Below are positions 45,001-48,000 of a DNA stretch of 64,000 nucleotides, one piece after another. Source of the DNA: Escherichia coli (GTDB lineage Bacteria; Pseudomonadota; Gammaproteobacteria; Enterobacterales; Enterobacteriaceae); NCBI RefSeq assembly GCF_024223415.1, contig NZ_CP100500.1; one strand, written 5' to 3'. A program made the position numbers. Each line of letters opens with the position of its first letter. Positions within the stretch are counted from its first letter, which is position 1.

Positions 45001-48000
45001 GGTAATATCTCTCTTAGGTGACTCTCCAAACATCCGCAAATATTCCCGGCTGAAATGGGATAAGCTTTCGTAACCGACAGCATAGGCTGCTGTGGTGACA
45101 TCGTAATGTTCATTCAGCATCGTTCGCCTGACTTCATTGAGACGTAGCCATTTCTGATACCGGAGTGGACTCATTCCCGCAAGCTGCCTGAAGTGTTGAT
45201 GGAAAGAGGGCGTGCTCATTTGCACGCGGTTTACCAGCTTGAGTCTTCAACGCTGGGAAGATGCGGCAAACGGCAAATCTGCATACCAGCCAGCCTATAT
45301 CCGGCATGCACAGGCCAATTATGAAAGAGGAGAGGCTTAAGTTCTGGAACCCTGAACGAATAACGACTACCGGAAAATCACTTCGTATCACTCAGATGCG
45401 ATTTAACATAATATACATTATGCGCACCAATATAAACCAAGGGAGAATCTAGTCGTTGGCGGTCATGATTGTCCTGCTCATTAACAACGACCAAACCCCA
45501 TATCTTACTCTTACTTAATACCGTATTCTCGGCTTAACCGACCGTGCAACCTCAACACATTGGTTTCAACTGCCGTCACCACGTTCTCTGGAAAATCTGT
45601 TGGTAATGAAGTCTTCACGTTATCCAGTACTGCCGGAATCATTCTGGCAAAGTCACTCAGGATTTCATGCATCTGCACTTCCGGGAATCTCAGCACCTTT
45701 GCTGTCGCCAAAAAATGTCGCGGATAAATTTTATCGATTGCCGTTTTTTTGCCTTTGGATGCGTTAAGCCCCATTGCCAGTTTGAGATCGCTGATGTGTA
45801 TTCCCGCGCCACCCAATACCGGAAATGCTGAAATGATGTCGTAAAATGGCGTGAGTCGATAACTGCCGCCAGCCTGAATAAATACGGAGAAGTTTTTTGC
45901 ATGGCCATCCGTTGCGCCAATCAACCACTGAAAGACCTGGAATTTCATAAAATCATACCGATCTTTCAGCGCCTCGCTGGACCCCATCAAAAAAGCCATG
46001 ATTCGCGCGATGCCTGGGCCTCCATCTGATTCATATTTCACCGATGAAGGTAAACCGAATGTCTGACACATATCCTCCTGTGGCAAGCGAAGTAAAACCG
46101 TTCGCTCAGTATTCCAACGCCTGTCAAAACGTTCGACCGCTAACGCGCGCACATTTCCCGCTTTAATGATTTCTGCGTCCGGAACATTCAACCCAAGTTC
46201 TTTCGCCAGCAGCAGACAGTAATACTCATTATCAACGCTTTGGCTGAGATCGAGCGTCGCATTGGGCTGCCTGATTTCCCCAATCGGTAATTTAATGATG
46301 TGCGTCGTCGGCGTTATTCCTTTCGGAATGCACCAGTCATTGCCTATTCTGAGCAGAGCTGTCTTCTCCTGTGCGCCAGCAACCGAGATGCGAAAGTCAT
46401 TTTCTTCTCTAATCATGCCTAGCGGGATATCTGCTTTATAAGCCGTTAATACTTCTTCAAGTCTGGCTTCAGTAAGCTTTTCCCATGCCATTATCGGACG
46501 CGTTACGGTTTCGTCTTCGGGTATTAACGTCACGGCACCAACGCTGTCTCGCCCTATTTCTGACAATAAATCAAACGGTTGTCTGGATTTGGCATGATAA
46601 CGTTTAACGATCCGGTCACGTACAATCGGGCTATCGGGTAACAAGTTATCGAAGAAGTTAAATACGGCATCAGAGGTGATATTCCCCCTCTGCAATGGCA
46701 GCGAAAGTGACAACGGTCTGGCATAACGGCTGGCTAACCACTCCGGTGCATACTTAAAGGTGTGCGCGCCGTTGGCTAACTTCGTTAACTCGCCTACCCG
46801 CTGGTTGTTCATCCAAGTGACTAGTTTGGGCATTACCACTCCAGATCTTGCTTTTCTGTTGATTCTGGCGAGGCATTTTTCGTGTCGCATAGCGTCATTG
46901 AGAGTTCAAGCGACTGTAAAATCTTAAAAAATGTCGTGAGCGAGGTATTGTCAGGGTTGTTTTCGAAATTGGAAATCGTCGCCTGCTTAATGCCGATTTT
47001 TTTCGCCAGCTCGCTCTGCGTCCAGCCATTTTGCTGGCGAACCAGTTTCATTGCATTCGCTAATTGCGTTGGGCTATAGATCTTCTGAAAGCTCATCATG
47101 TCATACGTCCACAGCAAATTTATCCGCTTAAGAGGATATTATCAGTTTTATCCTTTAGTGAGGATAAAGTCAATCTGGAAACACATCTTATCCGCTGTAC
47201 GGGATAAACGCTGCGATATCCGCGATCGCGGATAAAAGGGAGGCTTTAAAAGCCTTTTGAAGTTGGCAATATTAAGCCGCATGCCATCTCGACATGCGGC
47301 TTATACGGTTTACCAGCTATATTTCACTCCCAGCATGCCCTGAGTATCGCTATAGCCTTTATCACCTAGTTGCACACCGACATTCCCCCACAGGCTAAGG
47401 TTGTTATTTACTTTCGCCTCAACCCCGGTACGTACTTCACCGAGATTACGCGCACCATCACGGCTTACGGTTTGACCATTCATCTTCACGGCGTAGACTT
47501 TGCTATTGTTGATCCAGTTCGCTTCAATGTAAGGCTGGAACTCACGCTGTTTACCATCGTCACGCTGGTGATGGCTAATCAGGTAGGTTTTCACCCCAAG
47601 TCGCGTTTGCACGTTTCCGTTGCCTTCCGTTTCAATGCGCGTTCCGTCTTTCCGGGCATGGTCAGAATCTTTCACACCCATCCAGGTGATTTGCGCCTGT
47701 GGCTGGACGTACCAGGTATTCAGCGTCCCTTCGCTGCCGCTAAATGTTCCCGCTTCAAAGGTATACCCACCCTCAACAGAGGCCGTCACACCGCGAGAAT
47801 CATAGTCGTCAGCAGAACGGTTATCGGAACTGACGCTGTTATCAAACCAGTTATACAGCGCCCAGCTGTCAACATAAGCGCCGGTCTTATTCGCATCGTT
47901 CTGATACCAGGTCGCGTACAGCCCAGCGCTGTAACCGCTGATGCGCCCATCCGATTTATAACCCACACGATTACTCTGAGTATTACTGTGCTGATTGGCG

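What the first reader, a model, noticed from the sequence alone, without database searches (positions are those of the whole stretch)
46833..47234. hipBA toxin-antitoxin module with four exact HipB operators
The canonical persistence TA locus: hipB stop overlaps hipA start by 1 nt, and four copies of TATCC-N8-GGATA lie within about 115 bp upstream of hipB. It is well characterised rather than novel, but it is the one clear defence/persistence-type module in the window and sits between two decayed loci (yneL and the autotransporter).
Basis: partly seen in the sequence, partly recalled or inferred. Interest (0 to 1): 0.3.

Follow-up and report, generated by a model that had tools for sequence, protein, structure and literature searches.

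The report
Ordinary E. coli hipBA toxin-antitoxin operon
This is the well-studied hipBA persistence toxin-antitoxin operon of Escherichia coli, intact, carrying none of the four known high-persistence changes checked and in its commonest natural promoter form, so it is ordinary and already explained.

Summary
On the minus strand, hipB (46833-47099, 88 aa) is followed by hipA (45511-46833, 440 aa). The hipB stop and the hipA start share one base (TAATG). Four exact TATCC-N8-GGATA palindromes lie at 47121-47234, upstream of hipB. The window holds 5 such matches against 0.03 expected by chance.

The window is E. coli, 99.9% identical to strain SCU-316, where NCBI annotates the same genes as hipA and hipB. 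HipA differs from K-12 HipA at six residues: H112R, A242T, T343A, A402V, S424T and S439I. It is wild type at G22, P86, D88 and D291, so it is not hipA7 or either of the other two known high-persister alleles. S150, K181, D309 and D332 are also intact. HipB differs at T53S, A73T, Q83K and N85D; the last three lie in the disordered tail needed for Lon degradation.

The operator gaps are 10/22/10 bp, against 10/21/10 in K-12. The 22-bp form is at least as common among complete E. coli genomes (2386 against 1769 exact matches).

The finding's coordinates cover hipB and the operators only, not hipA. Verdict: already known, low interest.

The parts
45511..46833 (-). hipA: 440-aa Ser/Thr kinase toxin (end coordinate includes the stop codon)
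   Evidence: ORF and translation. Pfam HipA_C 1.4e-51 and Couple_hipA 2.5e-27. E 7.9e-296 to PDB HipA 2wiu_A. Six substitutions against K-12; G22, P86, D88, S150, K181, D291, D309 and D332 unchanged. Identical DNA is annotated hipA in SCU-316.
46833..47099 (-). hipB: 88-aa Cro/C1-type HTH antitoxin and repressor; its TAA stop shares one base with the hipA ATG
   Evidence: junction GTGGTAATGCCC. Pfam HTH_3 3.3e-15. NCBIfam HipB equivalog NF007271, 182.5 bits against a cut-off of 79. PDB HipB chains at 1e-52 to 1e-53. 95% identical to K-12 HipB, with T53S, A73T, Q83K and N85D.
47121..47138 (.). Operator nearest hipB (called O4 here, numbering from distal to proximal): TATCCTCTTAAGCGGATA on the hipB strand; 21 bp upstream of the hipB ATG
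   Evidence: Half-sites invariant in 9 diverse E. coli, spacer bases variable.
47149..47166 (.). Operator O3: TATCCTCACTAAAGGATA; 10 bp from O4
47189..47206 (.). Operator O2: TATCCCGTACAGCGGATA; 22 bp from O3 (21 bp in K-12)
   Evidence: The 22-bp form matches exactly in 2386 records and the 21-bp form in 1769.
47217..47234 (.). Distal operator O1: TATCCGCGATCGCGGATA; 10 bp from O2
47138..47173 (-). Core-promoter interval: TTGACT (47173-47168) just upstream of O3 and GATAAT (47143-47138) between O3 and O4. The exact -35/-10 pairing is not resolved here.
   Evidence: The hexamers are visible in the sequence. They lie 24 nt apart, so they cannot be one canonical sigma-70 pair. The strict consensus scan found no promoter. 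The best loose pairs are TTGACT-18-AAAACT or a weak -35 with GATAAT. GATAAT is the form in 8 of 9 E. coli sampled; only K-12 has TATAAT.
47241..47303 (-). Two hairpins between the autotransporter stop (47310) and O1; likely terminator of the upstream autotransporter gene, marking the upstream edge of the hipBA control region
   Evidence: RNA fold -28.3 kcal/mol, z = -5.1: a 13-bp stem at 47303-47273 and a 6-bp stem at 47255-47241 followed by CCCTTTT. The terminator function is inferred.

Best explanation
This is an intact chromosomal hipBA type II toxin-antitoxin operon of E. coli, carrying none of the four known high-persistence substitutions checked. Shown here: the gene content, the domain content, near-identity to the solved K-12 proteins, intact key residues, the 1-nt hipB/hipA overlap, four exact operators and conserved synteny. 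Taken from published work on the K-12 locus and not tested here: HipB dimers bind the four TATCC-N8-GGATA operators cooperatively, with HipA as co-repressor, and shut off the operon's own promoter, which lies among O2-O4. The stop/start overlap suggests coupled translation of hipB and hipA (inference). HipB holds HipA in an inactive complex. When free HipB is degraded by Lon through its disordered C-terminal 16 residues, HipA phosphorylates glutamyl-tRNA synthetase GltX at Ser239. Uncharged tRNA-Glu then accumulates, RelA makes (p)ppGpp, and growth stops in a small fraction of cells, which become antibiotic-tolerant persisters. HipA autophosphorylation at Ser150 limits its activity.
For:: five TATCC-N8-GGATA matches against 0.03 expected, four of them clustered upstream of hipB; intact 88-aa and 440-aa ORFs with a TAATG overlap, the same in 7 E. 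coli strains (one has TGATG). HipA_C, Couple_hipA and HTH_3 domains; near-identity to the solved HipA and HipB structures. HipB equivalog above its cut-off. S150, K181, D309, D332, G22, P86, D88 and D291 all match K-12. Only 6 of 440 HipA residues differ while the gene has 28 nucleotide differences, so most changes are silent; this fits purifying selection; the same neighbours as K-12, and PGAP annotates the identical SCU-316 DNA as hipA and hipB; all eight operator half-sites are invariant in 9 diverse E. coli while the N8 spacers vary, as expected if the half-sites are the protein contacts. Literature: four operators and cooperative HipB binding with HipA as co-repressor (PMC3920265); Lon degradation through residues 73-88 (PMC3376134); GltX Ser239, RelA and the hipA7, P86L and D88N alleles (PMC7758455); 1-bp overlap and 10/21/10 spacing in E. 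coli (PMC4150777).
Against: Nothing in the sequence argues against it. Four caveats. No activity, binding or expression was measured. HipA T343A and A402V and HipB Q83K were not seen in the six other alleles compared, and their effect is unknown. The O2-O3 gap is 22 bp rather than the 21 bp of the K-12 locus on which the structural work was done, though that form is common in nature. The -35/-10 hexamers could not be assigned from sequence.
Confidence: 0.93

Rival explanations
1. The locus is a high-persistence (gain-of-function) hipA allele like hipA7, in which weakened HipA-HipA or HipA-HipB-DNA assembly leaves more free kinase.
For: HipA carries two substitutions (T343A, A402V) and HipB one (Q83K) that none of the six other alleles compared carries. 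Only 41 of 5424 records are at least 99% identical over the locus.
Against: All four positions known to give high persistence (G22, P86, D88, D291; PMC7758455) are wild type. The known alleles cluster in the N-terminal dimerisation lobe, whereas T343A and A402V are in the C-terminal domain. The identical allele sits in a commensal from a healthy person (SCU-316).
Confidence: 0.03
2. The operon is silently inactive or on its way to decay, like its two neighbours, and no longer works as a toxin-antitoxin pair.
For: Both flanking loci are decayed. Other E. coli carry truncated or split hipA at this site ('HipA N-terminal domain-containing protein', IS insertions).
Against: Both ORFs are full length, the catalytic and regulatory residues are intact, the operators are exact, and most nucleotide differences from K-12 are silent.
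Confidence: 0.04
3. The module's main role here is anti-phage defence (abortive infection) rather than antibiotic persistence.
For: Some toxin-antitoxin systems are known to act against phage (general knowledge).
Against: PADLOC has no full-length match. There are only short local hits: HipA residues 282-336 to candidate family PDC-M03A, and generic HTH hits for HipB. The locus is a conserved chromosomal position in almost all E. coli (5421 of 5426 genomes), not a variable defence island. No literature retrieved here supports a defence role for E. coli hipBA.
Confidence: 0.02

Closest known systems
E. coli K-12 hipBA (b1508/b1507; HipA structures 3DNT, 3DNV, 2WIU, 3HZI, 4YG7, 5K98)
   Same: Same chromosomal site between the yneL remnant and the yneO-type autotransporter/lsrK. 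Same gene order and 1-nt overlap. HipA 434/440 and HipB 84/88 residues identical. Four exact TATCC-N8-GGATA operators with identical half-sites and 10-bp O1-O2 and O3-O4 gaps.
   Different: O2-O3 gap of 22 bp rather than 21. GATAAT instead of TATAAT between O3 and O4. A 13-bp stretch upstream of O1 that K-12 has is absent here. Single-base differences in the N8 spacers of O2 and O4. HipA H112R, A242T, T343A, A402V, S424T, S439I. HipB T53S, A73T, Q83K, N85D. Most of these are common natural variants.
E. coli strain SCU-316 hipBA (NZ_CP054371.1; WP_001125448.1 / WP_023154249.1)
   Same: 100% identical DNA over window 45400-47320. PGAP annotates the genes as hipA and hipB.
   Different: None within the operon. 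The adjacent autotransporter is intact (5421 bp) in SCU-316 but has a 3277-bp internal deletion in the window.
hipA7 high-persistence allele (G22S, D291A), and P86L and D88N
   Same: Same gene.
   Different: The window allele has the wild-type residue at all four positions.
Tripartite HipBST (E. coli O127:H6, Legionella) and Shewanella HipBA
   Same: Same kinase superfamily. Distant hits to HipT, HipS and S. oneidensis HipA in the PDB.
   Different: Here the N-terminal (HipS-like) domain is fused in a full-length 440-aa HipA, and HipB is the antitoxin. The operators are TATCC-N8-GGATA rather than the Shewanella GTGTA-N6-TACAC (PMC4150777).

Membership tests
HipBA type II toxin-antitoxin (E. 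coli K-12 type) | Toxin is a full-length HipA kinase with an N-terminal Couple_hipA domain and a C-terminal HipA_C kinase domain | tested here: met
   Pfam PF13657 (2.5e-27, residues 6-103) and PF07804 (1.4e-51, residues 149-400). 434/440 residues identical to K-12 HipA.
HipBA type II toxin-antitoxin (E. coli K-12 type) | Key kinase residues present: autophosphorylation site S150; K181, D309 and D332 of the active site (roles from published K-12 work; S150 cited in PMC4150777) | tested here: met
   All four are identical to K-12.
HipBA type II toxin-antitoxin (E. coli K-12 type) | Antitoxin is an 88-aa Cro/C1-type HTH protein with a disordered C-terminal tail ending in W88 | tested here: met
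   HTH_3 3.3e-15. NCBIfam HipB equivalog NF007271, 182.5 bits against a cut-off of 79. The sequence ends ...KQDLEW. The tail's role is described in PMC3376134.
HipBA type II toxin-antitoxin (E. coli K-12 type) | hipB lies upstream of hipA in one operon, with the genes overlapping by 1 bp | tested here: met
   TAATG junction at 46831-46835. The 1-bp overlap in E. coli is stated in PMC4150777.
HipBA type II toxin-antitoxin (E. coli K-12 type) | Four TATCC-N8-GGATA operators upstream of hipB, spaced 10/21/10 bp | tested here: met
   Four exact sites. The spacing is 10/22/10, one base more in the middle gap than K-12. This is a common natural variant: 2386 exact matches against 1769.
HipBA type II toxin-antitoxin (E. 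coli K-12 type) | Orthologous chromosomal position (yneL - hipA - hipB - yneO-type autotransporter - lsrK) | tested here: met
HipBA type II toxin-antitoxin (E. coli K-12 type) | HipA phosphorylates GltX and arrests growth; HipB neutralises HipA and represses the operon | not testable with these tools
   Biochemical and genetic properties, inferred from 98.6% (HipA) and 95% (HipB) identity to the characterised proteins.
hipA7 / known high-persister alleles | G22S with D291A (hipA7), or P86L, or D88N | tested here: not met
   The window has G22, D291, P86 and D88. The allele list comes from PMC7758455.
HipBST tripartite system | Kinase split into HipS (N-terminal-like) and HipT (C-terminal-like) genes after hipB | tested here: not met
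   A single 440-aa HipA ORF carries both domains.
Catalogued anti-phage defence systems (PADLOC v2) | Full-length match of the proteins to a defence-system model | tested here: not met
   Only short local hits: HipA residues 282-336 to PDC-M03A at 1.6e-07, and generic HTH models for HipB.

The most novel reading that the evidence does not exclude
The most novel reading not excluded has two parts. First, this lineage's private substitutions (HipA T343A and A402V; HipB Q83K in the Lon-degron tail) could change HipB turnover or HipA activity enough to shift the persister frequency. Second, the fifth exact TATCC-N8-GGATA inside the fimbrial usher gene (41411-41428, 5.7 kb away, conserved in K-12) could be a real extra HipB binding site linking hipBA to the yde fimbrial operon. 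HipB binding outside its own promoter has been reported for relA, eutH and fadH (Lin et al. 2013, as summarised in PMC3920263).
Probability: 0.05. Interest if true: 0.3.

Novelty: already known. Interest (0 to 1): 0.05.

Why it matters
It matters little beyond correct annotation. hipBA was the first persistence locus identified and has been taken apart genetically, biochemically and structurally. Three points are useful here. This strain's allele is not hipA7, P86L or D88N. The K-12 reference promoter is not the most typical E. coli form: only K-12 has TATAAT among the nine genomes sampled, and its 21-bp O2-O3 gap is the less frequent of the two spacer forms. The invariance of the operator half-sites against variable spacers across E. 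coli fits the published HipB-DNA contacts.

Tried and rejected
1. Strict sigma-70 consensus scan of 46700-47400: no promoter found. A looser scan gave only weak pairs, and TTGACT and GATAAT are 24 nt apart, so I did not assign -35/-10 hexamers.
2. Rfam scan of the whole window at gathering thresholds: no hits, so no known RNA element is associated with the locus.
3. Tried to read Schumacher et al. 2015 (Nature) and 2009 (Science) for the promoter layout: neither is held in the library. Operator spacing came from PMC4150777 instead.
4. Looked for a complete genome sharing the autotransporter deletion junction: none found. Every listed hit, including all full-coverage ones, aligns in two or three pieces.
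5. High-persister allele hypothesis: rejected at all four known positions.
6. Anti-phage defence classification: no full-length PADLOC match.

Full report
**Observation**

The minus strand of 45511-47234 holds two back-to-back ORFs.
- hipB runs 46833-47099 and encodes 88 aa beginning MMSFQKIY.
- hipA runs 45511-46833 and encodes 440 aa beginning MPKLVTWM.
- On the coding strand the junction reads GAGTGGTAATGCCC, so the TAA stop of hipB and the ATG of hipA share one A. Six other E. coli strains have the same arrangement; one of them has TGATG.

A pattern search for TATCC-N8-GGATA finds four exact copies upstream of hipB:

| Operator (my numbering, far to near) | Coordinates |
|---|---|
| O1 | 47217-47234 |
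| O2 | 47189-47206 |
| O3 | 47149-47166 |
| O4 | 47121-47138 |

A fifth copy lies at 41411-41428. Dinucleotide-preserving shuffles of the window give a mean of 0.03 matches, and none of 100 shuffles reached 5.

Two small corrections apply. The operator block spans 114 bp, but its far edge is 135 bp from the hipB ATG. The finding's coordinates (46833-47234) cover hipB and the operators, not hipA.

**Identity of the window**

- The 1.9-kb locus matches 5421 of 5426 complete E. coli genomes and is 100% identical to strain SCU-316, a rectal-swab commensal.
- The whole window is colinear with SCU-316 at 99.9% identity.
- PGAP annotates the identical DNA as hipA ('type II toxin-antitoxin system serine/threonine protein kinase toxin HipA') and hipB.
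- The neighbourhood is the K-12 one: yde fimbrial genes, a yneL remnant, hipA, hipB, a yneO-type (ECSE_1600) autotransporter, then lsrK.

**Proteins**

HipA has the Couple_hipA and HipA_C domains. It matches the crystallised K-12 HipA at E about 1e-295. HipB has a Cro/C1-type HTH, exceeds the NCBIfam HipB equivalog cut-off (182.5 bits against 79) and matches the solved HipB chains.

Differences from K-12:

| Protein | Substitutions |
|---|---|
| HipA | H112R, A242T, T343A, A402V, S424T, S439I |
| HipB | T53S, A73T, Q83K, N85D |

G22 and D291 (the hipA7 positions) and P86 and D88 (the other known high-persister positions, PMC7758455) are all wild type.
- S150, K181, D309 and D332 are unchanged.
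- hipA has 28 nucleotide differences from K-12 but only 6 amino-acid changes, which fits purifying selection.
- Against six other natural alleles, H112R, A242T, S424T and S439I recur elsewhere. HipA T343A and A402V and HipB Q83K are private to this lineage in that sample.
- Three of the four HipB changes fall in residues 73-88. This is the disordered tail needed for Lon degradation, and it can be removed without affecting DNA or HipA binding (PMC3376134). The conserved terminal W88 is present.

**Control region**

I aligned this region with K-12 and seven other diverse E. coli.
- All eight TATCC/GGATA half-sites are invariant, while bases in the N8 spacers and between operators vary. This is expected if the half-sites are the HipB contacts.
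- The operator gaps here are 10, 22 and 10 bp. K-12 has 10, 21 and 10, as the literature states (PMC4150777).
- The extra base is not unusual. An exact 41-mer of the 22-bp form occurs in 2386 records and the exact 40-mer of the 21-bp form in 1769.
- The hexamer between O3 and O4 is GATAAT here and in all seven other non-K-12 strains sampled. Only K-12 has TATAAT.
- I could not assign the promoter hexamers. TTGACT (47173-47168) and GATAAT (47143-47138) flank O3 but lie 24 nt apart. The strict scan found nothing and the loose scan only weak pairs. Whichever hexamers are used, O3 and O4 cover the core promoter and leader.
- Upstream, two hairpins (47303-47273 and 47255-47241; fold z = -5.1) sit between the autotransporter stop and O1. 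They probably terminate that gene (function inferred).

**Mechanism**

The anatomy above is shown here. The mechanism below comes from published work on the near-identical K-12 system and was not tested.
1. HipB dimers bind the four operators cooperatively, with HipA as co-repressor, and bend the DNA (PMC3920265).
2. HipB holds HipA inactive.
3. Free HipB is degraded by Lon through its tail (PMC3376134).
4. Freed HipA phosphorylates GltX at Ser239. Uncharged tRNA-Glu then triggers RelA and (p)ppGpp, giving growth arrest and drug tolerance in a few cells (PMC7758455).
5. Autophosphorylation occurs at Ser150 (PMC4150777).

**Rivals**

- A high-persister allele is rejected at every known position.
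- A decaying locus is unlikely, given full-length ORFs, intact key residues, exact operators and mostly silent divergence.
- A phage-defence role has no support. PADLOC gives only short local hits, and the locus sits at a fixed position in almost every E. coli rather than in a variable island.

**Flanks**

- The ORF at 44971-45225 is only the C-terminal AraC-type HTH and is annotated as a partial pseudogene in SCU-316 and as yneL in K-12.
- The autotransporter is 5421 bp and intact in SCU-316. In the window it lacks 3277 bp internally (junction near 48300, 1-nt microhomology). This puts the beta-barrel domain out of frame with the ESPR-bearing N-terminus.
- No complete genome in the collection shares that junction.

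**Verdict**

The locus is the already known E. coli hipBA operon, with none of the four known high-persistence changes checked and in its commonest natural promoter form. Interest is low.

Noticed in passing
window 41411-41428 (and 41729-41746): A fifth exact TATCC-N8-GGATA (TATCCTGCGACCTGGATA) lies inside the fimbrial usher gene (40210-42861, minus strand), 5.7 kb from the hipBA operators. A one-mismatch copy lies 300 bp away. The exact site is also present in K-12 (L002 4055), just upstream of the truncated ydeT. Chance expectation is about 0.03 per window, so it may be coincidence kept by coding constraint. HipB binding was not tested.
   Followed up: partly
window 47310-49453 (junction about 48300): The ECSE_1600/yneO-type autotransporter has a 3277-bp out-of-frame internal deletion relative to the otherwise near-identical strain SCU-316. 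It leaves a 450-aa ESPR-bearing N-terminal ORF and a separate 282-aa beta-barrel ORF. No complete E. coli genome in the collection shares the junction. An assembly collapse of a repetitive passenger domain is not excluded.
   Followed up: partly
window 40210-44537: The yde fimbrial operon is complete here: a full 884-aa usher, a chaperone at 42903-43613 and a FimA-like major subunit at 43974-44537. K-12 has a deletion that leaves a truncated usher (ydeT) and no chaperone or major-subunit gene.
   Followed up: partly
window 47167-47188: The O2-O3 operator gap is polymorphic in E. coli: 22 bp (this window, Nissle 1917, S40 and others; 2386 exact matches) against 21 bp (K-12, Jnd12, 10153; 1769 exact matches). 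Structural work used the K-12 form. Whether one base of extra spacing changes repressor assembly is unknown.
   Followed up: partly
window 10356-11252: ddpC is an intact 298-aa ORF here. The near-identical strain SCU-316 carries 29 extra bases at this point (window about 10828), and its ddpC is annotated as frameshifted.
   Followed up: partly
window 3739-4023: yddM, annotated in SCU-316 as a HigA-family addiction-module antitoxin, stands alone. No toxin-sized ORF lies between it and adhP, so it is an orphan antitoxin-like gene and not a second toxin-antitoxin module.
   Followed up: partly
window 22276-22429: Seven of the 29 single-base differences from SCU-316 cluster within about 150 bp inside gadB. 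This pattern suggests gene conversion with the paralogue gadA rather than independent mutations.
   Followed up: no
window 35072-35080: Two small indels in a T-run (3 bases in total) relative to SCU-316, in the ydeO-safA intergenic region.
   Followed up: no
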